A stretch of DNA of 64,000 bases, taken from NCBI GenBank assembly GCA_016700315.1, contig CP065013.1, positions 65,449-129,448 of the forward strand, in the 5' to 3' direction. A program made the position numbers and the translations under genes. This stretch comes from Candidatus Saccharimonadota bacterium (lineage in GTDB: Bacteria > Patescibacteriota > Saccharimonadia > Saccharimonadales > SZUA-47). Under the pieces are notes generated by a model, which saw nothing but the letters and a program-made list of their open reading frames with translations, searched no databases and was not told the origin of the DNA. This document shows, one piece after another, positions 24,570 to 41,266 of the stretch. Position 1 is the stretch's first letter. Each line of letters opens with the position of its first letter.

Positions 24570-27194
24570 TTACTTCCGACGACGGTTTTTGGCCTTATTT
24601 TTGCGTTCTTTTTTGCGTGATTGTTGCTTCTTCTTATGACTTAGGCTTGGCCTTGTAGCTGCATGCTTAGCTTTATCCGATCCCAAGAAATCTTCCTCGG
24701 AATAATTATCCTCGATTTCAACAACTACGTCGCTGCCTTCAACCGAACTACGAGCAGCTCGAGTCAGTTCGGTTTCGACCGGCCTATCAAGCGCATCTTC
24801 TTCGATCGGCTCGGCGTGGAAAAGCGTGCGCAGAGTATCATGCCTGAGATCTTGCTGCATCGTCTCAAACAAATGCTGAGCTTGACGGCGATATTCAACC
24901 AGCGGGTCACGCTGGCCAATACCAACCCAACCTATACCTTCGCGCAAGTGCTCCATGTTTTCTAGGTGTTGCATCCAAAGATTATCCAAAATCTGCAAAT
25001 AAACATCGCGCTCCACTTTTCGCAGAACTTCTGCGCCGAAGCGAGTCTCTTGAGTTGAGTATTGTTTTAGCGCAGCCTCTTCGAGTGACTTCTCGAATTT
25101 GTGAGTATCTGAATCAAAAAGTTTATCTAAAGTCTTCTCGCTAAGCGGGAAAACTTCCTTGACCATTGGCTCAAAATTGTCAGTGATGCTTTCTGGGCTG
25201 CGAGAAAGCTGACGCGCTTCATCGTTGATGAATACTTTTATGCGTCCATGAATGTCGGCCTCGTGCAAGATTTGTTTGCGCATTATGTATGTTGCCTTAC
25301 GGTGTCTGTTCATGACGTCGTCGTATTGAACAACATTTTTACGAGTATCGAAGTTAAAACCTTCGACCTTTTTCTGCGCGCCTTCTAGACTCTTGCTTAC
25401 GAAGCGGTTCTGAAGCGGCATCGAGTCGTCAATTTTTAGTCTGCCCATGACGGCCTGTATCTTCTCGCCACCGAAAATTCGCATTAGGTCGTCTTCGGTA
25501 CTAACGAAGAACTGACTTGTACCTGGGTCGCCCTGACGACCACCACGACCACGCAGCTGGTTATCGATACGTCTGGATTCGTGGCGTTCACTTCCGATCA
25601 CAGCCAAACCGCCGACTTCTTTCACCCCTTCTCCAAGCATAATGTCGGTGCCACGACCAGCAATGTTGGTAGCAAGCGTAACCGCACCTTTTTGGCCAGC
25701 CTGCATAATTATCTTGGCTTCACTTTCGTTGTTCTTGGCGTTTAAGACTTGGTGGGGTACGCCAGCTTTTTTGAGCAAGCGGCTTAACACTTCGTTTTTT
25801 TCGATTGAAACGGTACCAATTAGGACGGGCCGGCCTTCGGCATGAAGAACTTTTACTTCGTCGATTATGGCGTTAAACTTGCCCATTTCGGTCTTGTAAA
25901 TCTTGTCGGCTCGATCATCACGAACTACCTTGCGGTTTGGCGGAATCTGGACGACATCGAGTTTGTATATCTGGTGAAACTCTTCTGCCTCAGTTTCGGC
26001 TGTTCCGGTCATACCAGCTAGCTTGTTGTAGAGACGGAAATAGTTTTGGAAAGAAATTGTCGCAAGCGTCATTGATTCTTCCTGAACTTCGACGCCTTCT
26101 TTGGCCTCGATAGCTTGGTGCAAACCTTCGTTGTAGCGCCGACCTTTGAGTAGACGTCCAGTGAATTCGTCAACGATTACCACCTCGCCGTCGTTAGTGA
26201 CAACGTAGTCTTTGTCGCGCTTGAAGAGCGCCTGGGCTTTTAGAGCTTGGTTGAGGTGATAGATGTTGCGGATATTATCTGTACCGTAGAGGTTCTTGAT
26301 GCCGAGAGCTTTCTCAACTTGATCAATACCTTCGTCGGTCAAAGCAGTTTCTTTGCGTTTTTCGTCAACTTCGTAATGCTTATCGCGCTTGAGCTGGCGG
26401 ATAATTTTGGCAAATTGCGCATAAGAACTACCGCTTGTGGTGGCTGGCGCCGAGATGATCAACGGCGTTCTGGCCTCATCAATCAAGATTGAGTCAACTT
26501 CGTCGACAATAGCATAGTTTAGATCACGTTGGCGCAGCTGATCGACTTCGCGCACCATGTTGTCACGAAGATAATCAAAACCAAACTCATTGTTTGTTCC
26601 ATAAGTAATATCAGCGGCATATGCCTCTTGTCGAGTACAAGGCATTAGATGGCGGAAGCGTGGGTCATCGTGATCTTTGTTGTCAAAGGTCGGATCAAAA
26701 ATATACGACAAATCGGCCATAATAACAGCACAAGAAAGTCCCAAAAAGTTATAAATTTCCCCCATCCAGCCAGCATGCAGCTGAGCCAAATAATCGTTGA
26801 CGGTAACAAGATGCGCGCCCTTACCTTCTAGAGCGTTCAGATAAAGCGGCAGTGTTGCCACAAGGGTTTTTCCTTCACCGGTCTTCATTTCGGCAATCTT
26901 ACCCTCATGTAGCGTCATACCGCCGATCAGCTGAACATCGAAGTGGCGTTGTCCGATTGTTCGGCTAGCCGCTTCACGGACTAGCGCAAAAGCGTCATTA
27001 AGCACGATGTCAAGCGGGTTCTTCTTCTCGTTTTTGATACGATCCTTCAGAATAGCTGTTTGCGCAGCTAGCTCTTTATCGCTCATTTTTTTGTATTTAT
27101 CTTCGAGAGCATTAATCTGCACAACACGCTTTTTATAGCGTTTCAAAGTCTTTGCTTGAGGATCACCAAGCGCACGCTTCAAAAATTTTTTCAT
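24570..27194 (-). CDS. secA: preprotein translocase ATPase SecA
   Basis: 874 aa. MKTGEGKTLVATLP is the Walker A motif. DEVDSILIDEARTPLIIS and TNIAGRGTDI are also present. The C-terminal tail is Lys/Arg-rich. Confidence 0.95.
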   Translation of the reverse strand: MKKFLKRALGDPQAKTLKRYKKRVVQINALEDKYKKMSDKELAAQTAILKDRIKNEKKNPLDIVLNDAFALVREAASRTIGQRHFDVQLIGGMTLHEGKIAEMKTGEGKTLVATLPLYLNALEGKGAHLVTVNDYLAQLHAGWMGEIYNFLGLSCAVIMADLSYIFDPTFDNKDHDDPRFRHLMPCTRQEAYAADITYGTNNEFGFDYLRDNMVREVDQLRQRDLNYAIVDEVDSILIDEARTPLIISAPATTSGSSYAQFAKIIRQLKRDKHYEVDEKRKETALTDEGIDQVEKALGIKNLYGTDNIRNIYHLNQALKAQALFKRDKDYVVTNDGEVVIVDEFTGRLLKGRRYNEGLHQAIEAKEGVEVQEESMTLATISFQNYFRLYNKLAGMTGTAETEAEEFHQIYKLDVVQIPPNRKVVRDDRADKIYKTEMGKFNAIIDEVKVLHAEGRPVLIGTVSIEKNEVLSRLLKKAGVPHQVLNAKNNESEAKIIMQAGQKGAVTLATNIAGRGTDIMLGEGVKEVGGLAVIGSERHESRRIDNQLRGRGGRQGDPGTSQFFVSTEDDLMRIFGGEKIQAVMGRLKIDDSMPLQNRFVSKSLEGAQKKVEGFNFDTRKNVVQYDDVMNRHRKATYIMRKQILHEADIHGRIKVFINDEARQLSRSPESITDNFEPMVKEVFPLSEKTLDKLFDSDTHKFEKSLEEAALKQYSTQETRFGAEVLRKVERDVYLQILDNLWMQHLENMEHLREGIGWVGIGQRDPLVEYRRQAQHLFETMQQDLRHDTLRTLFHAEPIEEDALDRPVETELTRAARSSVEGSDVVVEIEDNYSEEDFLGSDKAKHAATRPSLSHKKKQQSRKKERKNKAKNRRRK

Positions 27195-31998: not shown

Positions 31999-32379
31999 TT
32001 AAACTTCTATGACATTTATTTTTTTGCCATAGAGCTTCTTTATTTGTCTGTCGGCAGTAACAAAATTTTCCACATTATTATCAAGCGCGCACGCTACTTG
32101 CAATGCATCTTCTAGATCGTTTTCAGCAGCAATATCGAATGCAAGCTCTACTGTATTGCCATTAACATTACAGATATGGTAGCTACCCATGGCTTTCCTA
32201 AATACATGATTCGGAATCTTTGAGTCTTTATTGATTATGTAATATACCGTATCAATTATCGAAGGGTTAATGAATAAATCGTAGTCTTTTAGTAGTTTTT
32301 GGATTTTCTCTGCCCTAGATCTTTGAATGATAATATCTATAATGATATTAATATCCAAAAAAGCTTGTTGCGCCGCCAC
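31999..32379 (-). CDS. PIN-domain (VapC-like) toxin
   Basis: 126 aa. It has FLDINIIIDII at the N-terminus and an acidic DLEDALQVACA...FVTADRQ at the C-terminus. Its GTG start overlaps the antitoxin stop. Confidence 0.7.
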   Translation of the reverse strand: MAAQQAFLDINIIIDIIIQRSRAEKIQKLLKDYDLFINPSIIDTVYYIINKDSKIPNHVFRKAMGSYHICNVNGNTVELAFDIAAENDLEDALQVACALDNNVENFVTADRQIKKLYGKKINVIEV

Positions 32380-32660
32380 TACAAATTACCCAGATACCTA
32401 TGGTCCTTATATTCTTCTTTGATTTTCTCTCGGTATTCTAAATCGTCAAGTTTGCCCCTAGTCTGGCTCGAAAGATAGTTAGATACTTCGCTATTAGCAG
32501 CAAACACACGAGATGCATTTGATTGTTTGGGAGTTTGGACCGGCCCGATTTGAGCCTGAAATTTATTTTTGTAAGTTATGCGTACAGTTTCACCACGACT
32601 TGCCCTTGCTAAAATAGATTTTAGATCTTCGCGAAGTTCTAATGCTGTAATTGTTTTCAT
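32379..32660 (-). CDS. Phd/YefM-like antitoxin
   Basis: 93 aa. The N-terminus is MKTITALELREDLKSILARASRGETVRITYKNK. It lies directly upstream of the PIN gene. Confidence 0.6.
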   Translation of the reverse strand: MKTITALELREDLKSILARASRGETVRITYKNKFQAQIGPVQTPKQSNASRVFAANSEVSNYLSSQTRGKLDDLEYREKIKEEYKDHRYLGNL

Positions 32661-32681: not shown

Positions 32682-33938
32682 TTAACTTAAAGTCAAGCTG
32701 ATAAGTGTTTCGATATGTGGAGTGCGTGGAAAAAAGTTGTAGGCATCGAAGTTTTGGATTTTGTAACCGCCGTCAACGAGTAGCCGCACATCCCTGGCCT
32801 GAGTAGCTGGATTACAAGAAAGGTAAACAATTTGCGCCGGTTTCTCGTTGATAATTTTTGCGACAACATCCTTGTGCAGACCCGACCGAGGTGGATCAAC
32901 TATAATTACCGAGTCTTTTGTTATGTAGCGAAGCGCTTTTTCGGTACTGGCTTCAACTACTTCGATTGGTTGTTTACTGACATTTTCGCGAGCCATTTTT
33001 GCATTTACTGGGTCGAGTTCGACCAGAACTTTGGTGCCGCCAATAGGTATGCCGATCGAGCCGACACCTGAGTACATATCAACTTTATTGGTTGCTCCGC
33101 TAGTTAAATGGTCGATTCGTTTAAGCGCCAGTTCAAAAATTGGTAAGTTAACCTGGAAAAACGATAACACGTCATAGCTTAGCGCGCAGCCCAGTAACCG
33201 ATCGCTCAAGATTGTTGAACCGTTCTGATAAATCTTCTCGGTTGTAATCGATGCTGGGCTTTTGGGATCACTGTAGTAGACAACAAGGTTATCTAGTTTG
33301 AGCTTGGGAAAAGTTTTGGTTTTGACGAATAGAGCTAGTGCCACTTTTGCGTTTTTGGAAGCCGTTTCGCTGCGTATAATAACCGACTTTAGACTGCCCG
33401 CTCTAATTTTTTGATCATTTAACTCTTGTAAAAGGGCTTTAGCTTGGTCAGACATATTCTGGTAAATAAGATCATTGTACGGCAGTTCTAAGAATATTTT
33501 GCGGTGAGTTGCTCGCAAGTAATGCGCAAAATGAAGCCCGGCTTCGTCACCCCAAAACGAGAATTCAACCTTGTTTCGATAGTGATTAACCGGACCAGTG
33601 CTTTGCACCTCAAAATCTGGCAAGATAACTGACTCACGCTCAAATATCTCTGTGACTATCGACCTTTTGGCGGACAGTTCTGCCTCATAGCTCATTATTT
33701 TAAGCGGCTGGGTTGATAGCTCGATGTCCTCTCGACCTAGCTCACTTATGCGATCTGGGCTTGGCTTGATTATCTTGGTAGCAAAACCTTCGGCGTGTGT
33801 CTTTTTGGATTTGCTAATCTCAACTTCTACTTCTTCACCCGGCAGCGCATTCCATGCAAAAATCTTACGGCCGTCAGGAAGCGTGCCTAACCCCTGCCCA
33901 CCATGAACCAGCTTCTCAATTGTAACGAACTCGGTCAT
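32682..33938 (-). CDS. TRAM-domain RNA (uracil-5)-methyltransferase, RlmD/TrmA family
   Basis: 418 aa. The N-terminal TRAM-like barrel reads IEKLVHGGQGLG...VEVEI. The C-terminal MTase has DMYSGVGSIG, DPPRSG and YLSCNPAT. Confidence 0.8.
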   Translation of the reverse strand: MTEFVTIEKLVHGGQGLGTLPDGRKIFAWNALPGEEVEVEISKSKKTHAEGFATKIIKPSPDRISELGREDIELSTQPLKIMSYEAELSAKRSIVTEIFERESVILPDFEVQSTGPVNHYRNKVEFSFWGDEAGLHFAHYLRATHRKIFLELPYNDLIYQNMSDQAKALLQELNDQKIRAGSLKSVIIRSETASKNAKVALALFVKTKTFPKLKLDNLVVYYSDPKSPASITTEKIYQNGSTILSDRLLGCALSYDVLSFFQVNLPIFELALKRIDHLTSGATNKVDMYSGVGSIGIPIGGTKVLVELDPVNAKMARENVSKQPIEVVEASTEKALRYITKDSVIIVDPPRSGLHKDVVAKIINEKPAQIVYLSCNPATQARDVRLLVDGGYKIQNFDAYNFFPRTPHIETLISLTLS

Positions 33939-33941
33939 TTA

Positions 33942-34916
33942 CTACGGGCGGAGGGCGCCGGCAAAGACCTGCCATGCCAGTAAAGTTTTGGCTACAAGAC
34001 TGAGCACAATATAAGTTTTTTCACCATAAAGGTAGTCTGCCCAGCGACCTTTGCGCTTGTACTGAAGCCACATGTTGATAGCAAACGAGTTAAACATCAA
34101 GAATATGCTAACTAGTATTGCGTAGACAAAAGTTGGTGGGCTAGCTTCACCGTAGCGGCTTGAACCAAAAACGTACCACGCATAAACAAACCAAGGTAAC
34201 GCGCCGGCCACACAACCTACAACGTAGCTTGACCAATTAACTTTTTCGCTCCGCTTGTTATGTAGCTCCATTACCAAACCGCATAGATTCATGACTGCCG
34301 TTAGGCCAAACATCATCAGAAGCGTCGCTAAGTCTGCCACACCGGCAATCATGGCAATCGCTACAATCATAGTGCTGGCACTAAGCGAATACTCATACCA
34401 ACGAGCACGGTTAATGCCCTGGCTTAGATCGCTTTCATATTTTTTACGATACCAGGTGCTAACTGAGAAGTGAGCGATCGCCGATAGGGCAAAAAATGCC
34501 GCAATAACATAAGCAAGGTTTAAATCAAAGAAGCTCCTTGATGCATTGACCAATACTGGTGCGCTGCCTCCGGCTAGACTATCAGTTGTCAAATAACTAG
34601 TTGTAACTGGGAAGGTTCGATTACTTGCCAACAGTACAACTGCCACAGCCTGAGCTAAATGCAATAAGCCCGCTGCCATATTCCAGCGGCGAAGCCTCTC
34701 CATGACCGACAATGATTTATTTTTACTCTTGCTGTTTGTTGAATTCTCGACTTTACTTACAGGCTTAATTGAAGCGATTTTTGATGCTTTGGCAATTGCC
34801 GATTTTGTTGTTTTTGTGCTAGATTTCTTAGTTGTTTTAGAGCTAACTTTTTTGCCAGTTTGTTTAACGGTACTAGCTGTCCGCTTTGTGGTTGTACTTT
34901 TCCTCTTTGTAGCCAT
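33942..34916 (-). CDS. heliorhodopsin with a Lys/Ser/Thr-rich N-terminal extension
   Basis: 324 aa. RWYEYSLSASTMIVAIAMIAGVADL and GEKTYIVLSLVAKTLLAWQVFAGAL match my memory of heliorhodopsin 48C12 (RWVEYSLSSSVMIV, ERAYIVLSLVAKSALAWQIF). An alternative start at Met72 is at 34703. Confidence 0.85.
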   Translation of the reverse strand: MATKRKSTTTKRTASTVKQTGKKVSSKTTKKSSTKTTKSAIAKASKIASIKPVSKVENSTNSKSKNKSLSVMERLRRWNMAAGLLHLAQAVAVVLLASNRTFPVTTSYLTTDSLAGGSAPVLVNASRSFFDLNLAYVIAAFFALSAIAHFSVSTWYRKKYESDLSQGINRARWYEYSLSASTMIVAIAMIAGVADLATLLMMFGLTAVMNLCGLVMELHNKRSEKVNWSSYVVGCVAGALPWFVYAWYVFGSSRYGEASPPTFVYAILVSIFLMFNSFAINMWLQYKRKGRWADYLYGEKTYIVLSLVAKTLLAWQVFAGALRP

Positions 34917-34955
34917 AATGAGTTAAGTGTAACAGCGGCAAGCCAAACATACAAA

Positions 34956-35609
34956 TTACTGCTGAATTTCTGACATCAACTGCTCAAAAATCGGTCTCGT
35001 GAACGCTTCGTTTTCGCTAGAATTACCATTACTCGCATTAACTGAAAATATCCGGTTTTGCTGTAATGTCATGAAGCCTTCGTTCGAGTATATAACTCTT
35101 TGGTTCTGTACTTGAGCAAGCTCAAAGGCTTGATTCTGCCCAGCTTTTAGAAAGTAGTCAAACACGGCTGCGGCTTTTTGAGGACTGCTATAGCTGACCA
35201 AGCTCAGACTAACAAACTTTTGATTGTTATCCTTGTTGTGATAAACACAGGATTCATTTAAACCACTCTCAAGATCAGGCTTGTTGTGGTCTATCCTGGC
35301 ATAGAAAACACTTGGTGTGTTAATGATGGTTTTGCTTACATCACCTGCTAAGAATTGCTTAGCTTTTTTGTCGGTTAACAGCCCGCAGCCAAAACCTAGA
35401 CTAGCCTTTTGTGCAGCAAAGCTTCTATCATAGACGTCGTTCTGGTCACGCGAAACAGTGACTAGCAAGCTATTTTGTAATGCCAAAGCTGCAATTGAAA
35501 TAAAAAACCAGAATATTAGAATTAGTAACAATAGATTCCTGTATTTAGATTTCAAGTTATTACCACCAACCTTTTTTTGTTCAATGGTTTTTTTAGTCTT
35601 TTTTGTCAT
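34956..35609 (-). CDS. hypothetical membrane-anchored protein
   Basis: 217 aa with one N-terminal TM helix (LLLLILIFWFFISIAALAL). No recognised family. Confidence 0.5.
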   Translation of the reverse strand: MTKKTKKTIEQKKVGGNNLKSKYRNLLLLILIFWFFISIAALALQNSLLVTVSRDQNDVYDRSFAAQKASLGFGCGLLTDKKAKQFLAGDVSKTIINTPSVFYARIDHNKPDLESGLNESCVYHNKDNNQKFVSLSLVSYSSPQKAAAVFDYFLKAGQNQAFELAQVQNQRVIYSNEGFMTLQQNRIFSVNASNGNSSENEAFTRPIFEQLMSEIQQ

Positions 35610-35618
35610 ACTCTTTGG

Positions 35619-35921
35619 TTAGTCGGTAATCTTTACATTGCCATAGAAGGCTATGTATCCAGCAAATTCCCTGCCTACTCGCTGAACAGCCGAGGCCATC
35701 GGTTCTGGATAGCACCAGGCGTTGTCTTCTGACCAGTCTTCGCCTTCACCGACATCGAAGAACTGGCAGGCACCCTTCCACGGACATGTGTATGGTGTGT
35801 CACTTTTTCGCAAAAGTTTAAGATTGACGCTACTAGGCGGAAAATACCAGTTGCCTTCAATATTAACTAGGTCGTCTTGCACAGATTCGGCAACTATTTT
35901 ATCTTTCCAAATGGCCTTCAT
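35619..35921 (-). CDS. DUF427 domain protein
   Basis: 100 aa. AIWKDKIVAES...IEGNWYFPP...YTCPWKGACQFFDV matches my memory of the DUF427 pattern. Confidence 0.65.
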   Translation of the reverse strand: MKAIWKDKIVAESVQDDLVNIEGNWYFPPSSVNLKLLRKSDTPYTCPWKGACQFFDVGEGEDWSEDNAWCYPEPMASAVQRVGREFAGYIAFYGNVKITD

Positions 35922-35939: not shown

Positions 35940-37328
35940 TTACTCTGTTCTGAGAGCCTCAATAGGATCAAGCTTGGCGGCTTTACGGGCCGGCAAATAA
36001 CCTGCCATTATTGCTACAAAACAGAGAACCAAAAGCAGCATGACTACCTGCTCAATTCTAAAGATCAATAGATCATTGCCTAGATCGAGTTTCTTGCTAA
36101 TCCATGGGTTCATCATTGTCCCCACAACAAAGGCTATCAGCGCACCTAAGATACCGCCGAGTAAACCAATCCACCCAGCTTCGAGCATGAACAGCCTTCG
36201 CACATCACGGTTGCGCATACCCAATGCTTTCATTAAGCCAATCTCGCGAGTACGCTCTAACACGCTAATGTACTGCGTGTTGACAATGCCGAAGATTGAG
36301 GCGATGAGGGTTATGAACCCAAAAACCGCCACGACAATCTGAAGTGTATCAACTATTTGTGTGACTGATTTCTGGATTTCTCTTGTACCGATGACGTAAT
36401 AGCCTTTTTTGCCGAGATCGTCTCGGGCTTCGTCCATTGCTTTTTGATCTTGGCCATTTCGTATACGTACATATGCGTAAATATACTTACCATAGCCAGA
36501 CGTATCTTTAGAGGTATATTCGTATATGTCGCTGGCATCTTTCTCGGAAACAATGAATGGTGGCGCACCAAAACTAAAACTAGTTGGTGATTTTCGACTA
36601 ACTGCTGAGATAGTTAACACCATATCCTTGCTGGCAACTTGTGACTCAGCCAGACTCTGCGGGTTTAGCTGCCCACTTTTAAAACTATCAACTAAACTCT
36701 GTACATTTGCAGTAGTAAAAGATTGTTGAATGTTCAGATTCACGGTTTTGCCAAGAGCTTCGTTAGCATCTTTGAAACCCAAAGCACCCAAAAAATTATC
36801 TGGAATAATGATGTGCCCCGGGCTTAGTGAGTCCTGGTCTAGATTGCCAGCTGTTATTTCTGGCCGCTGCGCCGGGTTAAACCCGATCAAACTTAGTGCA
36901 TACTTTTTCTGGCCTTCGCGGGTAATGTAGCGAGCTGAAATTTGCGTTTCTTCCCTGACTCTTTCAGCGTAAGGTAGAGACTTTAGCTCAGCTAGATCGG
37001 TGCTGCTAACTTGTTTTATTGCGATGCTACTCGAACCGCCACCACCGCCACCGAAGTTTAGGTTGGATGTATTCTCGTCATACTCTTTTGGTGCGGTGTT
37101 TGGGCTGCCGGTATTAGCCACTTCCGGGTCGCGGCCAACTATCAGCTCAGATGGGTCAAAATTACTCTTAATAAGATTCGAGGTGTACTGCCTAATGCCA
37201 TTACCGGCTGCCAAAGTTGCTGTAAGCGTAAAACCTCCAACAGCAATGGCGAGTGCCGTTAGAATCGTGCGGCCTTTAGCACTCCGCAAACTTCGGCCAC
37301 TTCGAGCAATTGTATCAAGCAATCTCAT
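35940..37328 (-). CDS. ABC transporter permease, MacB/FtsX type
   Basis: 462 aa with an N-terminal TM helix, a large periplasm-like loop and a C-terminal FtsX-type 3-TM bundle (REIGLMKALGMRNRDV). It overlaps the ATPase gene by 4 nt. Confidence 0.8.
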   Translation of the reverse strand: MRLLDTIARSGRSLRSAKGRTILTALAIAVGGFTLTATLAAGNGIRQYTSNLIKSNFDPSELIVGRDPEVANTGSPNTAPKEYDENTSNLNFGGGGGGSSSIAIKQVSSTDLAELKSLPYAERVREETQISARYITREGQKKYALSLIGFNPAQRPEITAGNLDQDSLSPGHIIIPDNFLGALGFKDANEALGKTVNLNIQQSFTTANVQSLVDSFKSGQLNPQSLAESQVASKDMVLTISAVSRKSPTSFSFGAPPFIVSEKDASDIYEYTSKDTSGYGKYIYAYVRIRNGQDQKAMDEARDDLGKKGYYVIGTREIQKSVTQIVDTLQIVVAVFGFITLIASIFGIVNTQYISVLERTREIGLMKALGMRNRDVRRLFMLEAGWIGLLGGILGALIAFVVGTMMNPWISKKLDLGNDLLIFRIEQVVMLLLVLCFVAIMAGYLPARKAAKLDPIEALRTE

Positions 37329-38023
37329 TTTTTGCCTCCAGCTTTGGCGGCGCCAGTGATCTTTTCTAGCCGTCCGTCTTTGATGTAAACTTTTATGTCA
37401 CACATACTAGCCAGGTCATGATCGTGGGTCACCATAACCAAAGTTGCACCCAGTTTTTTGTTCATGTTAAAGAGCAGCTGCATGATTTTGTCACCAGTCT
37501 CACTATCGAGGTTGCCTGTAGGCTCATCGGCAAAAATTATGCTTGGTTTGTTAACAATTGCTCTGGCTATCGCCAAGCGCTGCTTCTGGCCACCAGATAG
37601 ATTACGAGCTCTTGAATCGGCTTTGTCGGCAAGCTCAACTTGCGTTAAAGCCTGGAGTGCCCTTGCCTTTCGAGCCCTTGGTCTGACATTGGAAATTTCT
37701 AGAGGTAAGCTGACATTGCTAAGAACTTTTTGGTTGGCCTCGACAAAGAACGACTGAAAAACAAAACCCATTTTTTTGCTTCTAAAACTGTCTTTGGCCT
37801 TGGCTTTCATCCCAGCAATATTTACACCGTCAACAATCACTTGGCCTTCTGTTGCAGGGTCAAGCCCACTCATGACGTGCATCAGAGTGCTCTTGCCAGA
37901 GCCGCTTTTACCCACTATCGCCACACTAGCGCCATCAGGAATTGAAAAGCTCACTTCTGAGAGAGCAGTGAAGGCAGTCTCTTTTTTGCCATAAGTCTTG
38001 GATATATTTTTTAGTTCAATCAT
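37325..38023 (-). CDS. ABC transporter ATP-binding protein (MacB/LolD-like)
   Basis: 232 aa with Walker A GKSGSGKST, signature LSGGQKQR and Walker B IIFADEPT. Confidence 0.9.
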   Translation of the reverse strand: MIELKNISKTYGKKETAFTALSEVSFSIPDGASVAIVGKSGSGKSTLMHVMSGLDPATEGQVIVDGVNIAGMKAKAKDSFRSKKMGFVFQSFFVEANQKVLSNVSLPLEISNVRPRARKARALQALTQVELADKADSRARNLSGGQKQRLAIARAIVNKPSIIFADEPTGNLDSETGDKIMQLLFNMNKKLGATLVMVTHDHDLASMCDIKVYIKDGRLEKITGAAKAGGKK

Positions 38024-38038
38024 TACTATTATTGTACA

Positions 38039-39286
38039 CTAATTTAATACTTCAATTATGGGGATTGGGATCGTGCATATTTCCGGACAACTGTCTTCGC
38101 TAGTATCGACCGCCGTAGTGTCGACAGACAAAACGCCACTTTCGTTGACAACCGTCTTTATCTTGGATATATCAATATTTTTATGGGTAGTAAGCTTGAC
38201 GTTGCTGTACCAAGTGTCTAAAACATGATTATTGATCTTGCTGTTGTCACTAACTTCGAGCTTACCGCTTACAATTATGGAGTTGAACGGCTTCAGTGTT
38301 CTACTTTCAACGCTATACGTGCTACGATAACGCGCTTCCAACTTTGGCGCAGTACTACCAATCATACTCAATCCCAAGCAAAAGCTGAATGCCATAATAA
38401 CACCGAACCAGTTTGCCTTACGTTCTGACATGGCCCTTTTCTTACGAATTATTCTCAGGCTAACCATTACTATGCCTGCGAAAAACAGCAATACCGACAG
38501 TATCGTAAACCCAAAACCAAACTTCTCAATTAGGGTTAGTGGGAAAATATCGACTCCGTTTAACTTCAGATTTGCAAAATATATATAACTTGCCGCTGTA
38601 AAAACCCCGAACAAAGACAATAAAGAAACTACAAGTAAGATATAGGCGAAAAAATTAACAACTAGGCTGACGATAAAAGATGCAGCTTTTGTGAACTTCT
38701 TGCTAGCCTGAGTGGTTTTATCGTTGATGTTTAGAGATTCGATTCTCTCTTTTATATTATCAACTGTCACGGGGATCCCCTGCATCTTGAGTCTGTCTGA
38801 TTCGGTTATTGCTTGAGGGAGCAATATCCACATCGCAACATACAGCATGACACCGAAACCACTACCAAATGCTAGTGCGATGAATAGTAGTCGAAACCAC
38901 AGAGGATCGGTTTCAAAATATACACCCAAACCACTGGCCACGCCTCCGATTATCTGACCCTCTGGGTCTCGCATCAGTTTACGGCTTTCGTTTGTTTTTG
39001 ATCTACTATTATACCTGTCACCTACCGGTTCGTCACTTTCAAAGTCTACCGGCTGACCAAGCTGGTTTTTTAAGTATTCAATATCTTCTTTTAGAACAAC
39101 CTTTTCATTAGCGATACCACGATTCTCAATTAGTAGTTCGGCCATTCGTGCTTCAATTTCGTTAACAACTTCTTCACTTTCGGCGTGTTTTTTGACAGCC
39201 TCTAGGTACACTTGCAGGTGTTTGTAGGCATCGTGCGCAATCACGAATTGCGAACGGTTAAGGTTGATGCGTTTCACTTCGTTCAT
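38039..39286 (-). CDS. PspC-domain membrane protein
   Basis: 415 aa. The PspC motif reads IIGGVASGLGVYFETDPLWFRLLFIALAF. Further TM helices follow. It overlaps the PadR gene by 4 nt. Confidence 0.7.
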   Translation of the reverse strand: MNEVKRINLNRSQFVIAHDAYKHLQVYLEAVKKHAESEEVVNEIEARMAELLIENRGIANEKVVLKEDIEYLKNQLGQPVDFESDEPVGDRYNSRSKTNESRKLMRDPEGQIIGGVASGLGVYFETDPLWFRLLFIALAFGSGFGVMLYVAMWILLPQAITESDRLKMQGIPVTVDNIKERIESLNINDKTTQASKKFTKAASFIVSLVVNFFAYILLVVSLLSLFGVFTAASYIYFANLKLNGVDIFPLTLIEKFGFGFTILSVLLFFAGIVMVSLRIIRKKRAMSERKANWFGVIMAFSFCLGLSMIGSTAPKLEARYRSTYSVESRTLKPFNSIIVSGKLEVSDNSKINNHVLDTWYSNVKLTTHKNIDISKIKTVVNESGVLSVDTTAVDTSEDSCPEICTIPIPIIEVLN

Positions 39287-39642
39287 CTGCTTTTTTCTCC
39301 TTCCAGTTTCTTTATCGCACTATTTAAATTCTTGTAGGCGGCCGCTAGACCCTTCATTACCGTTTTTCCCTCATCTGTTAACCAGTAGTATTTACGGGGC
39401 GGTCCCTGCTCTGACTCTTGCCATTCATAGCCCAAAAGCCCAATTCCAGCTAATCGGTTTAGCAGCGGATAGAGCGTCCCCTCGACGACGATTAGCTCAC
39501 TGGCGTGAAGTTTGACAATTATTTGACTGCTATACACTTTTCCTTGCGAACAAAGCAGTAGCACGGCGTAGGTTAAAGCGCCCTTTTTCATCTGTACGGC
39601 ACTTGATTCGACGAATTCGTTTTGGTCAGTAGTCTGATTCAT
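39283..39642 (-). CDS. PadR family transcriptional regulator
   Basis: 119 aa. GTLYPLLNRLAGIGLLGYEWQESEQGPPRKYYWLTDEGK is a typical PadR wing. Confidence 0.8.
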   Translation of the reverse strand: MNQTTDQNEFVESSAVQMKKGALTYAVLLLCSQGKVYSSQIIVKLHASELIVVEGTLYPLLNRLAGIGLLGYEWQESEQGPPRKYYWLTDEGKTVMKGLAAAYKNLNSAIKKLEGEKSR

Positions 39643-39763: not shown

Positions 39764-41266
39764 TTAAAGTACCAGTTTTTCTAAGCGAGCTTTTATAGAG
39801 CCTTCGTGACGGCCAAACTGCTGGCTCAATTGCCGGAATGTTTTGCCTTTTGAGTTTAGTTTGAGCAGTTTTTGGTCATCTTGCCCTGTCCATGGAGTAT
39901 AGGCATTCGGATACTCAAGTCTCATCTTGGCAAGTTTTTCTGCCCAAGTTCCGCCTGATTTAGTCTTTTTGAGCTTCTTTTGAGCACATGCTTTTTCCCA
40001 TGCGCTCTCTAGGGTTTTATACAAAGCGTCATTTTGGAGAGATGATTTTCGTAATTGTTTATCGATTTCCTGCGCACGCTCATTCATTGTTAGGGCCGTC
40101 CTGTTAAGCCCACCAAGACTCAAACTATCCAGCGACCTAACACGACTGATCGCTACGTAACCCATGCCCGGGACAAAGGCCTTTGATAGATCAATGTGCG
40201 CAGAGTCCAGGGTCATACCCTGGCTTTTGTGAATGGTGATCGCCCAGGCTAAGCGCAGCGGGATCTGACTAATGCTAGCTATCTTTTTTTCACCGTCTCT
40301 TAGTTCCCATGTTTCGTAGTCGGCAACTACTTGCTTACTGTTTTTGATTCTGACTATTGGCAATCCCGAATCTTCTTCAAAACCGACCACCTCGCCAAGC
40401 GTACCATTAACATATTTTTGCTCTTGGCTGTTTTTGACGAACATCACAAATGCACCCTCTTTAAGTTTCAAAACTTCTGGCGCTAGGCAACTTTTTTTGA
40501 GCGTAGCTACGCCCGTTTTGCGCCCACTTGAGTTCATAAAAAACTCATGTTCTTCACCCTCCACTGCGCCGAGCTTAGCGTTATTTATTACATCTACATT
40601 TATATTGTGAGTGTAGAGTTCTGTTGTCCCCTCCGGTAATTCAGTGCTTAAACGTCTATTCATTAGCGCCTCAACATGACGACGACGTAAATCATTCTCA
40701 CGAAAGGCCGTCAGAATTTCACTAAGCATGTCGTCGTTCTGACGATGCTGTTCCTCCAGATAACAAACTATTGGATCAAGCTCTTGCCATGAAAAACTAT
40801 CAAAAATAAAATCACCCTGCCTACTACCATCTCGGTTAATAGGTGGTAATTGGAAAAAGTCACCGCTCAGCACAACCTGCAAACCACCAAACGGTGAATC
40901 GTTTTCTCGAACCAATCTACAAACCTTTTCCACCATATCTAGCCTAAAATCATGAAGCATAGAAACTTCGTCGATGATCAAAATGTCGGAGGTTTGGATT
41001 TGTGCCTTTCGGCTCTTACTCATCGATTCGATCTGCCCTTTATTAAGTTCATCAGCGATACCAATACCCGCCCAGGAGTGTATCGTGTTTCCTCCAAGAT
41101 GAGTTGCAGCAAGGCCTGTGCTCGCGGTAACGGCTACTTTCTTTCCATTGGCCCTCGCCCACTTAACAAACTCGTTAAGAACGTACGTTTTTCCGCTACC
41201 TGCGGGCCCAGTCAAAAAAACAGAATTACCTTCACTCAAAATCCCCAGAGCCATAGCTTGCTTCAT
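39764..41266 (-). CDS. Pif1/RecD-like ATP-dependent DNA helicase with a C-terminal HTH-like tail
   Basis: 500 aa. It has Walker A LTGPAGSGKTY and the motifs ILIIDEVSML, VLSGDFFQLPP and ITIHKSQG. Confidence 0.8.
   Translation of the reverse strand: MKQAMALGILSEGNSVFLTGPAGSGKTYVLNEFVKWARANGKKVAVTASTGLAATHLGGNTIHSWAGIGIADELNKGQIESMSKSRKAQIQTSDILIIDEVSMLHDFRLDMVEKVCRLVRENDSPFGGLQVVLSGDFFQLPPINRDGSRQGDFIFDSFSWQELDPIVCYLEEQHRQNDDMLSEILTAFRENDLRRRHVEALMNRRLSTELPEGTTELYTHNINVDVINNAKLGAVEGEEHEFFMNSSGRKTGVATLKKSCLAPEVLKLKEGAFVMFVKNSQEQKYVNGTLGEVVGFEEDSGLPIVRIKNSKQVVADYETWELRDGEKKIASISQIPLRLAWAITIHKSQGMTLDSAHIDLSKAFVPGMGYVAISRVRSLDSLSLGGLNRTALTMNERAQEIDKQLRKSSLQNDALYKTLESAWEKACAQKKLKKTKSGGTWAEKLAKMRLEYPNAYTPWTGQDDQKLLKLNSKGKTFRQLSQQFGRHEGSIKARLEKLVL

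What the first reader, a model, noticed from the sequence alone, without database searches (positions are those of the whole stretch)
33942..34916. Heliorhodopsin with a 71-aa Lys/Ser/Thr-rich N-terminal extension
The C-terminal 250 aa or so match heliorhodopsin 48C12 as I remember it. The retinal Schiff-base lysine context is conserved (IVLSLVAKTLLAWQVFAG versus IVLSLVAKSALAWQIFSG). So are the counterion Glu in RWYEYSLS and the two conserved His residues (GLLHLAQ, AIAHFSV).
Upstream of an internal Met (MERLRRWN, 34703) the ORF continues for 71 aa of basic low-complexity sequence (MATKRKSTTTKRTASTVKQTGKKVSSKTTKKSSTKTTKS...). This extended start leaves only a 39-nt gap to the upstream gene, in keeping with the compact spacing elsewhere in the window.
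Heliorhodopsins have an inverted topology with a cytoplasmic N-terminus. The tail would therefore be a cytoplasmic, histone-H1-like polycationic arm on a photoreceptor whose function is still debated. It could tether nucleic acid, ribosomes or an acidic partner in a light-dependent way.
Basis: partly seen in the sequence, partly recalled or inferred. Interest (0 to 1): 0.7.

Follow-up and report, generated by a model that had tools for sequence, protein, structure and literature searches.

The report
Heliorhodopsin with conserved polycationic disordered tail
This is a genuine heliorhodopsin light-sensor gene from a Saccharibacteria (TM7) genome whose 71-residue, strongly positively charged, floppy N-terminal tail is really translated and is shared by many Saccharibacteria heliorhodopsins, which gives a new but still untested handle on what these enigmatic photoreceptors do.

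Summary
Window 33942..34916 (-) encodes a 324-aa protein. Residues 75-322 are a full-length heliorhodopsin (Pfam E 2.5e-94; NCBIfam equivalog; TaHeR fold TM 0.9), and H86, H149, E175, S306 and K310 are invariant in relatives.

The 71-aa Lys/Ser/Thr tail (net +19) is real coding sequence, not an over-extended ORF.
- 105-110 of the 120 closest 90%-identity clusters carry a tail of 51-84 aa (mean 68, net charge +19.5±2.6). It starts with a conserved MATT(T)KK, and 85 of 105 have no Met near the Met72 position.
- All 9 tail-bearing loci examined have a -10-like promoter hexamer ending 6-10 nt before ATG1 and no Shine-Dalgarno, which implies a leaderless mRNA. Nothing comparable precedes Met72.
- NCBI annotates the same gene from Met72, so its record drops the tail.

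AlphaFold predicts the tail to be disordered. It lies on the cytoplasmic side by the positive-inside rule. Similar tails occur in 52 of 142 diverse heliorhodopsin cluster representatives, and length differs between syntenic orthologues (15-20 aa versus 50-84 aa).

Function is inferred only. The tail most likely acts as an electrostatic tether to a cytoplasmic polyanion (nucleic acid, ribosome or anionic lipid). Light dependence is pure speculation. I rate this a new variant of a known kind, of moderate interest.

The parts
33942..34916 (-). Complete heliorhodopsin gene: 324 codons plus TAG stop
   Evidence: ORF list. Pfam PF18761 E=2.5e-94. NCBIfam HeR equivalog at 321 bits. Identical 324-aa protein found on public contigs (P0134).
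34704..34916 (-). Codons 1-71: the Lys/Ser/Thr-rich polycationic N-terminal tail. Net charge +19, predicted disordered, cytoplasmic.
   Evidence: Composition. AF2 pLDDT 40-49 for residues 1-60 and no secondary structure before residue 71. Conserved as a 51-84 aa tail in 105 close homologues, with net charge +19.5±2.6. NG86 omega 0.42 with one in-frame indel against L081.
33951..34694 (-). Heliorhodopsin 7-TM core (residues 75-322), including H86, H149, counterion E175, and S306/K310 of the SxxxK retinal-binding motif
   Evidence: Pfam/NCBIfam envelope. These residues are invariant across 57 aligned homologues. Foldseek best hit is TaHeR 6is6, TM-score 0.91 normalised to target, rmsd 2.3 A. Helix boundaries and the ECL1 beta-hairpin at residues 102-132 come from the AF2 model.
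34926..34934 (-). Extended -10-like promoter element TGT-TACACT, ending 9 nt before ATG1. Implies a leaderless or near-leaderless mRNA that starts at Met1.
   Evidence: A -10-like hexamer ends 6-10 nt before ATG1 in 9 of 9 tail-bearing loci, 7 of them with TGn. Background is 6.2% of all ATGs in the window. None is found upstream of Met72. Coordinates checked. The generic promoter scan did not flag this site because its -35 is weak.
34949..34954 (-). Weak -35-like hexamer TTGTAT, 17 nt upstream of the -10. It abuts the upstream gene's stop codon.
   Evidence: The block TAATTTGTAT is identical in the window and in the 71%-identical syntenic locus L081, while the spacer has diverged. Only 3 of 6 positions match TTGACA, so this is tentative.
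34701..34703 (-). Internal Met72 codon. NCBI uses it as the start (253-aa form QQS65402.1). It is most likely not the main start.
   Evidence: Cluster members of 253 aa start MERLRRWN. There is no -10 or SD element upstream of it. Only 20 of 105 long-tail homologues have any Met near this position. Of 8 homologue loci, 4 have no ATG/GTG/TTG at all between Met1 and the core, and 1 more has its only candidate inside the core.
32682..33938 (-). Context: downstream TRAM + RlmD-like RNA (uracil-5) methyltransferase, 3 nt after the heliorhodopsin stop and probably co-transcribed
   Evidence: Pfam TRAM + tRNA_U5-meth_tr. NCBIfam best match is RlmD but below its cut-off. It lies downstream of the heliorhodopsin in 17 Saccharibacteria loci, with a 2-9 nt gap in L003 and L010-L014.

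Best explanation
The gene encodes a bona fide heliorhodopsin (HeR) of a Saccharibacteria (TM7/CPR) bacterium. The protein is made from Met1, probably from a leaderless mRNA driven by an extended -10 promoter in the 39-nt gap.

Its first ~70 residues form an intrinsically disordered tail on the cytoplasmic face, directly ahead of helix A. The tail is almost acid-free and aromatic-free, is rich in Lys/Thr/Ser/Ala, and carries about +19 charge (about +38 if the protein is a dimer, as solved heliorhodopsins are). Selection appears to act on charge, length and disorder rather than on exact sequence.

My inference on function: the tail works as an electrostatic tether that keeps the photoreceptor in contact with a cytoplasmic polyanion. 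The most likely candidate is nucleic acid (nucleoid DNA, or rRNA/ribosomes), with the anionic lipid surface as the alternative. In these ultra-small cells such polyanions are within reach of a 70-residue chain.

Shown here: identity, start site, conservation, disorder prediction, sidedness.
Inferred: what the tail binds.
Speculative: any light control of that binding.
For: Identity.

The tail is translated and conserved:
- 110 of the 120 closest 90%-identity clusters have a tail of at least 40 aa.
- In 105 re-parsed tails, length is 68.1±6.5 aa, net charge +19.5±2.6, K:R 18:1, aromatics 0.27%, and the first three quintiles contain essentially no acidic residues.
- The extreme N-terminus MATT(T)KK is conserved.
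- In-frame stops lie 1-14 codons upstream of ATG1 in species-representative genomes.
- Against L081, omega is 0.42 for the tail and 0.07 for the core, with a single in-frame indel.

Start site: a -10-like hexamer ends 6-10 nt before ATG1 in 9 of 9 loci, against a 6.2% background, and there is none before Met72. 85 of 105 homologues have no Met near position 72. The short database forms are truncated calls: P0114 is the L001 ORF minus its 65-aa tail, and QQS65402.1 is the 253-aa form.

Disorder: pLDDT 40-49 and no secondary structure.

Sidedness: positive-inside count of 10/33 against 3/50, plus the established N-in topology of heliorhodopsins (stated in PMC7807009 and PMC9166423).

Specificity: only the heliorhodopsins and two MIP channels among ~693 crude genes carry such a tract.

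Breadth: 52 of 142 diverse representatives have a tail of at least 40 aa with net charge of at least +8. This includes Arg/Ala/Pro-rich versions that stay cationic, so charge rather than A-rich DNA is what is kept.

Precedent, from general knowledge and not tested here: basic C-terminal tails of Oxa1 and some YidC homologues bind ribosomes, and Lys-rich tails of mycobacterial HupB and actinobacterial TopA bind DNA.
Against: - No binding partner or activity was tested or can be computed here.
- The tail sequence evolves fast. Amino-acid identity to L081 is 51% against 77% for the core, and differences are spread evenly over codon positions (25/25/29). Omega of 0.42 rests on a saturated dS. That pattern is also compatible with weak constraint.
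- Syntenic orthologues manage with only 14-22 basic residues (L006-L016), so the long tail is dispensable for basic heliorhodopsin function.
- The trait needs about 19 gains or losses on a crude NJ tree.
- A similar tail on an unrelated MIP channel argues for a generic membrane-protein role rather than photoreceptor signalling.
- No transcript or proteomic data are available to prove the start.
Confidence: 0.4

Rival explanations
1. The tail is a weakly constrained low-complexity expansion, an 'accordion' of the short basic N-terminus (MSKKIT, then 15-20 aa, then 50-84 aa). On this view it has no specific function beyond being harmless, or at most acts as an entropic or solubility spacer.
For: There is a graded series of N-terminal lengths in syntenic orthologues. 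Sequence turnover is fast, with substitutions even across codon positions and omega 0.42. About 19 state changes are needed on the tree. No detectable similarity to any family.
Against: Length and charge fall in narrow ranges across 105 diverged clusters (68±6.5 aa, +19.5±2.6) and acidic and aromatic residues are almost excluded. The MATT(T)KK start is conserved. Charge is retained where Lys is replaced by Arg. There are no tandem DNA repeats that would drive slippage. Such tracts are rare in the same genomes: 15 of ~693 genes, of which 11 are heliorhodopsins.
Confidence: 0.25
2. The tail serves biogenesis or expression rather than signalling. It could be a strong N-in topogenic and retention signal, a lipid-surface anchor for a polytopic protein in a reduced insertion system, or an A-rich unstructured 5' coding region that favours initiation on a leaderless mRNA.
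For: The mRNA appears leaderless. The tail-coding DNA is A-rich. A similar tail is found on another N-in polytopic protein, a MIP channel. The extreme N-terminal codons are the best conserved part: the first 12 residues are identical to L081.
Against: The core loops already satisfy the positive-inside rule without the tail. Tail-less and short-tail orthologues exist in the same syntenic slot. About 200 nt is far more than initiation would need. Arg/Ala/Pro-rich tails from less A-rich genes keep the charge. The tail has essentially no aromatic or hydrophobic residues for membrane insertion.
Confidence: 0.2
3. The extension is an annotation artefact. On this view translation begins at Met72, as in NCBI's 253-aa model, and the upstream 213 nt are a 5' UTR that happens to be open.
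For: NCBI PGAP and some IMG calls use Met72. A 71-codon open stretch occurs at 22.5% of random positions on this strand. No Shine-Dalgarno precedes either start.
Against: 105-110 diverged homologues keep an open, compositionally constrained tail that starts at a conserved MATT(T)KK. 85 of 105 lack any Met near position 72, and 4 of 8 loci have no ATG/GTG/TTG between Met1 and the core. The promoter -10 sits 6-10 nt before ATG1 in 9 of 9 loci and none precedes Met72. The indel against L081 is in frame. NCBI itself annotates the long form in another Saccharimonadales genome (MGH7195694.1).
Confidence: 0.04

Closest known systems
Heliorhodopsins with solved structures: TaHeR (6is6) and 48C12 (6su3)
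   Same: Full-length match to PF18761 and NF038020. 7-TM fold with an ECL1 beta-hairpin (TM-score 0.86-0.91). Conserved H86/H149, counterion E175, and S306xxxK310. N-in charge distribution.
   Different: TaHeR and 48C12 have only about 7-15 residues before helix A in the alignments. This protein has 70, with net charge +19 and predicted disorder.
Heliorhodopsins with N-terminal fusions described by Bulzu et al. 2021 (PMC8612252): MORN-HeR, Znf-HeR (ntv1) and the uninterpreted 'ntv2-ntv10' extensions
   Same: Extra sequence at the cytoplasmic N-terminus of a heliorhodopsin, taken as a clue to downstream partners.
   Different: MORN and zinc-ribbon are folded domains found in Firmicutes and Thermoplasmatales. 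This tail is a low-complexity disordered polycation in Saccharibacteria with no profile match. It may be one of their ntv classes, but the supplementary table is not held and the paper's text gives no description of a Lys-rich tail.
Saccharimonadia heliorhodopsins surveyed by Chiriac et al. 2022 (PMC9166423)
   Same: Same lineage and same SLVAK retinal motif. They report 80 heliorhodopsins in Saccharimonadia.
   Different: That paper does not mention the N-terminal tail.
Polybasic disordered tails that tether proteins to polyanions: histone H1 C-terminal domain, mycobacterial HupB and actinobacterial TopA Lys-rich tails, Oxa1/YidC ribosome-binding tails (general knowledge); Ala/Lys-rich extension of CPR uS19 (PMC9297842)
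   Same: High Lys content, very few acidic residues, disorder, and location on the cytoplasmic (nucleic-acid) side.
   Different: No sequence homology. Much richer in Thr/Ser and poorer in Ala/Pro than H1-type tails. Attached to a photoreceptor. Binding is untested.
MIP/aquaporin-family proteins of two Saccharibacteria genomes (L043:6448-7293, L050:6885-7736)
   Same: An N-terminal 'MATKKATKTVKKTTVKKP...' Lys/Thr-rich tail on a polytopic membrane protein with a cytoplasmic N-terminus.
   Different: Unrelated core fold, shorter tail (about 30-50 aa), and found in genomes whose heliorhodopsin has only a 6-aa N-terminus.

Membership tests
Heliorhodopsin (PF18761 / NF038020) | Significant full-length match to the family profile, above the curated cut-off | tested here: met
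   Pfam 315.6 bits against a cut-off of 26.7, covering model positions 1-242 of 242. NCBIfam equivalog 321.2 bits against a cut-off of 100.
Heliorhodopsin (PF18761 / NF038020) | Retinal Schiff-base Lys in TM7 within the SxxxK motif | tested here: met
   S306-L-V-A-K310. It aligns to the Lys of TaHeR and 48C12 and is invariant in 57 homologues.
Heliorhodopsin (PF18761 / NF038020) | Counterion Glu in TM3 and the two conserved His residues | tested here: met
   E175 (RWYEYSLS), H86 and H149 are invariant columns and align.
Heliorhodopsin (PF18761 / NF038020) | 7-TM rhodopsin fold with a long beta-hairpin in the first extracellular loop | tested here: met
   AF2 core pLDDT mostly above 90, with strands at 102-111 and 122-132. 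Foldseek top 10 hits are all heliorhodopsins, TM-score 0.83-0.91.
Heliorhodopsin (PF18761 / NF038020) | Inverted topology (N-terminus cytoplasmic) | tested here: inconclusive
   The positive-inside count supports N-in: 10 K/R in 33 loop residues on the N-terminal side against 3 in 50 on the other. This is a prediction, not a measurement.
Heliorhodopsin (PF18761 / NF038020) | Binds retinal and shows a slow photocycle without ion pumping | not testable with these tools
   Needs expression with all-trans retinal and spectroscopy.
Histone-H1-like / linker-histone-type basic tails | Detectable sequence relationship to H1 or other known basic DNA-binding tails | tested here: not met
   Apart from Heliorhodopsin, no Pfam family matches the full protein. 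The tail alone finds nothing in PDB at E<=10 or in the 5.8-billion protein set.
Histone-H1-like / linker-histone-type basic tails | Lys/Ala/Pro-dominated composition with S/TPxK motifs (general knowledge of H1 C-terminal domains) | tested here: not met
   Query tail: K 25%, S+T 39%, A 8.5%, P 1.4%. Pooled tails: K 30%, T 21%, S 14%, A 13%, P 4%. No SPKK-type motif in the query tail (sequence).
Histone-H1-like / linker-histone-type basic tails | Binds DNA or RNA | not testable with these tools
   Needs EMSA or anisotropy with the purified tail.
Domain-fused heliorhodopsins (MORN-HeR, Znf-HeR; PMC8612252) | A folded, profile-detectable N-terminal domain | tested here: not met
   No second Pfam domain. 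The tail is predicted disordered.

The most novel reading that the evidence does not exclude
The tail makes this clade of heliorhodopsins a light-modulated electrostatic tether. The slow photocycle would move helix A and the cytoplasmic face, changing how available the +19 arm (+38 per dimer) is. That would reversibly capture or release nucleoid DNA, ribosomes/rRNA or another polyanion at the membrane of an ultra-small epibiont. The gene often lies 2-9 nt from an RlmD-like rRNA methyltransferase and is probably co-transcribed with it, which hints at an rRNA or ribosome link. If so, this would be a direct photoreceptor-to-nucleic-acid coupling with no folded effector domain.
Probability: 0.08. 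Interest if true: 0.85.

Novelty: new variant of a known kind. Interest (0 to 1): 0.5.

Why it matters
Heliorhodopsins are abundant, and no general function has been agreed for them. Published clues come from cytoplasmic partners and from rare fused domains.

A conserved, charge-constrained cytoplasmic arm present on a large share of Saccharibacteria heliorhodopsins is a concrete and cheap experimental handle. Full-length and Δtail proteins can be compared directly for DNA, RNA, ribosome or lipid binding, in light and in dark.

The result also exposes a systematic annotation problem. NCBI models start some of these genes at an internal Met and drop the tail, so surveys built on those models miss the feature. 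It adds evidence that leaderless transcripts are common in this CPR lineage.

If the tail proves to be only a weakly constrained expansion, the finding is a minor note on low-complexity evolution.

Tried and rejected
- Tail-only searches found nothing. phmmer against PDB at E<=10 gave 0 hits. The word-indexed search of 5.8 billion proteins gave 6 candidates and none scored. I therefore could not survey which other families carry such tails beyond the ~693 genes I held locally.
- Tandem Repeats Finder on the tail DNA found no repeats, so recent slippage is not the origin.
- The generic sigma-70 scan did not flag the promoter upstream of ATG1, because the -35 matches only 3 of 6. I used a targeted -10 test with a background instead.
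- Shine-Dalgarno evidence is uninformative, since only 20 of 67 genes in the window have an SD-like core.
- Variation within the 90% cluster is too sparse for a tail-versus-core test: 0-1 tail and 0-4 core differences per sequence.
- dN/dS against L081 is usable but dS is saturated (core dS 2.7), so I treat omega as rough.
- The supplement of Bulzu et al. listing ntv1-10 is not held. I cannot say whether this tail is one of their classes.
- 9vfc, a 317-aa heliorhodopsin in PDB with extra N-terminal residues, is a eukaryotic heliorhodopsin, and its paper does not discuss N-termini.
- Neighbour genes (DUF427, ABC/FtsX, RlmD-like methyltransferase) co-occur with the heliorhodopsin only within related Saccharibacteria loci. 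That is lineage synteny, not a cross-phylum functional link.
- There is no second heliorhodopsin in the window.
Full report
**1. What is there**

Window 33942..34916 on the minus strand is a 324-codon ATG-initiated ORF (sequence).

Residues 75-322 match the whole Pfam heliorhodopsin model (PF18761, positions 1-242 of 242, E=2.5e-94). They also match NCBI's equivalog model NF038020 'heliorhodopsin HeR' at 321 bits against a cut-off of 100. phmmer against PDB sequences gives TaHeR (6is6) at E=1.9e-66 and 48C12 (6su3) at E=3e-56.

In a 57-sequence alignment, H86, H149, E175, S306 and K310 are invariant. An AlphaFold2 model built on that alignment has a high-confidence core. It shows seven helices plus the beta-hairpin in the first extracellular loop. 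Its ten best Foldseek matches in the PDB are all heliorhodopsins (TM-score 0.83-0.91 normalised to target, rmsd 2.3 A to TaHeR).

The organism is a Saccharibacteria (TM7) bacterium. The same protein is annotated in NCBI as 'heliorhodopsin HeR [Candidatus Saccharibacteria bacterium]', QQS65402.1, on a 988-kb contig. The best related loci in species-representative genomes are Saccharibacteria/Saccharimonadales MAGs.

**2. Is the 71-aa extension real?**

Openness of the frame alone is weak evidence. On this gene-dense strand, 22.5% of random positions have 71 stop-free codons upstream. Four other lines of evidence carry the case.

(a) Conservation in close relatives. Of the 120 closest 90%-identity clusters, 110 have at least 40 residues before the core (median 68). 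These are overwhelmingly Lys/Thr/Ser/Ala, and the N-terminus is a conserved MATT(T)KK.
- After re-parsing, 105 tails have length 68.1±6.5 aa (range 51-84) and net charge +19.5±2.6.
- K:R is 18:1, aromatics are 0.27%, there is no H/W/Y/C, and the first three-fifths hold virtually no acidic residues.
- Only 20 of 105 have any Met near the Met72 position.

(b) Stops upstream of ATG1. In species-representative genomes the tail-bearing genes have an in-frame stop 1-14 codons upstream of the MATT ATG. Of 8 homologue loci, 4 have no ATG/GTG/TTG anywhere between Met1 and the core, and in a fifth (L004) the only candidate falls inside the core.

(c) Promoter position. All 9 tail-bearing loci I could read have a -10-like hexamer (TATAGT, TAAACT, TACACT, TATCAT or TATTAT) ending 6-10 nt before ATG1.
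- 7 of the 9 are preceded by TGn, and none has a Shine-Dalgarno.
- The same test is positive for 6.2% of all ATGs in the window and for 21 of 58 crude gene starts.
- It is negative upstream of Met72.
- This is the signature of a leaderless or near-leaderless mRNA that begins at Met1.
- In the 71%-identical syntenic locus L081, the -35-like and -10 blocks of the 39-nt gap are conserved while the spacer has diverged.

(d) Codon-level comparison with L081. The tail has dN 0.42, dS 1.0 and omega 0.42, against omega 0.07 for the core. It has one single-codon in-frame indel, and its first 12 residues are identical. dS is saturated, so these numbers are rough. They show relaxed but not absent constraint.

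The short forms in databases are truncated calls. P0114 (NCBI, 257 aa) is exactly the L001 ORF minus its 65-residue tail. The 253-aa QQS65402.1 starts at Met72. Elsewhere NCBI annotates a long form (MGH7195694.1). I put the artefact reading at about 4%.

**3. Properties and distribution of the tail**

AlphaFold gives pLDDT 40-49 and no secondary structure for residues 1-60. Helix A starts at residue 71.

Core loops on the N-terminal side hold 10 K/R in 33 residues, against 3 in 50 on the other side. The core alone therefore dictates the N-in topology known for heliorhodopsins, and the tail is cytoplasmic.

The tail is not a general habit of this proteome. In 67 crude genes of the window, and about 693 across the window plus 83 fetched loci, such tracts occur in 15 genes, of which 11 are heliorhodopsins.
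- The notable exceptions are MIP/aquaporin-family proteins in L043 and L050. These have a 'MATKKATKTVKKTTVKKP...' N-terminus.

Nor is the tail confined to this gene's immediate clade. An exhaustive HMMER search with the core alone found 3,320 heliorhodopsin representatives.
- Among the best 142 full-length ones (34-58% core identity), 52 have an N-terminal extension of at least 40 aa with net charge of at least +8.
- Some are Arg/Ala/Pro-rich instead of Lys/Thr-rich yet remain cationic, for example P0272 from a Saccharimonadales MAG.
- This argues that charge, not A-rich DNA, is the retained property.
- A few other heliorhodopsins have acidic or neutral extensions instead (P0164, P0204, P0253).

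On a crude NJ tree the trait is clumped, needing 19 parsimony changes against about 42 in label shuffles, but it is not a single clade.

Among 80 species-representative loci, long tails occur only in the Saccharibacteria nearest the query (L001-L005, L009, L018).
- A second group of Saccharibacteria has 14-22 basic residues.
- Most other Saccharibacteria, Dojkabacteria, Chloroflexi and archaeal heliorhodopsins have 4-8 residues.

Long-tail and short-tail genes occupy the same syntenic slot: ABC/FtsX, DUF427, hypothetical, HeR, RlmD-like methyltransferase, RsmE. The tail therefore lengthened or shortened within orthologues.

**4. Mechanism**

Shown or strongly supported: a heliorhodopsin is made with a ~70-residue, disordered, +19 cytoplasmic arm, and the arm's charge and length are maintained.

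Inferred: the arm acts electrostatically. My preferred reading, at about 0.4, is a tether to a cytoplasmic polyanion, which could be nucleoid DNA, rRNA/ribosomes or the anionic lipid surface. I base this on the near-exclusion of acidic and hydrophobic residues and the steady charge density of about 0.26-0.29 per residue. It is also supported, from general knowledge, by well-known polybasic tails that bind ribosomes (Oxa1/YidC) or DNA (HupB, TopA, H1). CPR ribosomal protein uS19 also carries an Ala/Lys-rich extension (PMC9297842).

Against a photoreceptor-specific role:
- orthologues with short N-termini exist;
- a similar tail sits on a MIP channel;
- the sequence turns over quickly.

Rivals:
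- a weakly constrained low-complexity 'accordion' (0.25);
- a biogenesis or expression role, whether topogenic, lipid-surface or leaderless-mRNA related (0.2);
- an annotation artefact (0.04).

I put it at about 8%.

**5. Comparison with what is known**

The core is an ordinary member of the heliorhodopsin family, and every sequence-testable defining feature is met.
- Heliorhodopsins in Saccharimonadia are already reported (80 occurrences, PMC9166423).
- Saccharibacteria with rhodopsins are thought to lack retinal synthesis and to scavenge retinal (PMC9296517).
- Bulzu et al. (PMC8612252) described MORN and zinc-ribbon N-terminal fusions. They mention 'at least 10 N-terminal extensions (ntv1-ntv10)' but interpret only ntv1. 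The table is not held.

I found no text in the searchable library describing a Lys-rich or disordered heliorhodopsin tail.

'Histone-H1-like' fails as a membership claim. There is no homology, and the composition is Thr/Ser-rich and poor in Ala and Pro. It remains a functional analogy.

**6. Verdict**

I class this as a new variant of a known kind. It is a widespread but apparently undescribed polycationic disordered N-terminal arm on Saccharibacteria heliorhodopsins, and some NCBI gene models hide it.

Interest is 0.5. The finding offers a cheap experimental route into the open question of heliorhodopsin function. However, function is not shown, and a weak or generic role is a serious possibility.

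Noticed in passing
L043:6448-7293 (-) and L050:6885-7736 (-): MIP/aquaporin-family proteins (Pfam MIP, E about 1e-19) in two Saccharibacteria genomes start with a Lys/Thr-rich tail, 'MATKKATKTVKKTTVKKPVAAKKTTK...'. It resembles the heliorhodopsin tail. The heliorhodopsins of these two genomes have only a 6-aa N-terminus.
   Followed up: partly
window 24570..27194 (-): SecA (all four SecA Pfam domains) ends in a strongly basic tail, '...SHKKKQQSRKKERKNKAKNRRRK'. This is another polybasic terminus on a membrane-associated protein.
   Followed up: no
window, whole (e.g. upstream of 37325..38023, 39283..39642, 39764..41266): Leaderless-type starts look common. 21 of 58 crude gene starts have a -10-like hexamer ending 6-10 nt before the ATG, and only 20 of 67 genes have a Shine-Dalgarno-like core.
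   Followed up: partly
window 32682..33938 (-), with L003 and L010-L014: A TRAM + RlmD-like RNA (uracil-5) methyltransferase starts 3 nt after the heliorhodopsin stop, and 2-9 nt after it in six other Saccharibacteria loci. It is probably co-transcribed. In other loci a 71-670 nt gap separates the two, long enough in several to hold another gene (a NUDIX gene in L081).
   Followed up: partly
window 31999..32660 (-): A PIN-domain toxin (31999..32379) and a Phd/YefM-like antitoxin (32379..32660, below the Pfam cut-off) sit between the methyltransferase and DnaJ. The pair is absent from the otherwise syntenic locus L081.
   Followed up: partly
window 34956..35609 (-) and 35619..35921 (-): The immediate upstream neighbour is a 217-aa protein with a basic N-terminus followed by a hydrophobic stretch that looks like a TM anchor. 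It has no Pfam or NCBIfam match and no tblastn hit in the other loci, although a positional counterpart of 219 aa exists in L081. Next to it is a DUF427 protein that recurs within about 4 kb of the heliorhodopsin in 12 Saccharibacteria loci.
   Followed up: partly
public annotations of this gene (QQS65402.1) and of L001 (P0114): NCBI gene models start at an internal Met and omit the 65-71 aa tail. Other gene callers give the long form, so the database holds two lengths (253/257 aa versus 322-324 aa) for the same genes.
   Followed up: yes
representatives P0164, P0204, P0253, P0278: Some other heliorhodopsin clusters carry long N-terminal extensions of quite different character: acidic (net -14, -8) or neutral, including Cys-containing. 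These are possibly further unexplored cytoplasmic modules.
   Followed up: no
window 34702..34926 (+) and 34757..34954 (-): Two mechanical ORFs overlap the tail-coding region. One is antisense (Phe/Leu/Val-rich, the mirror of the Lys-rich frame) and the other is in another frame with a TTG start. Both look like by-products of the low-complexity sequence.
   Followed up: no
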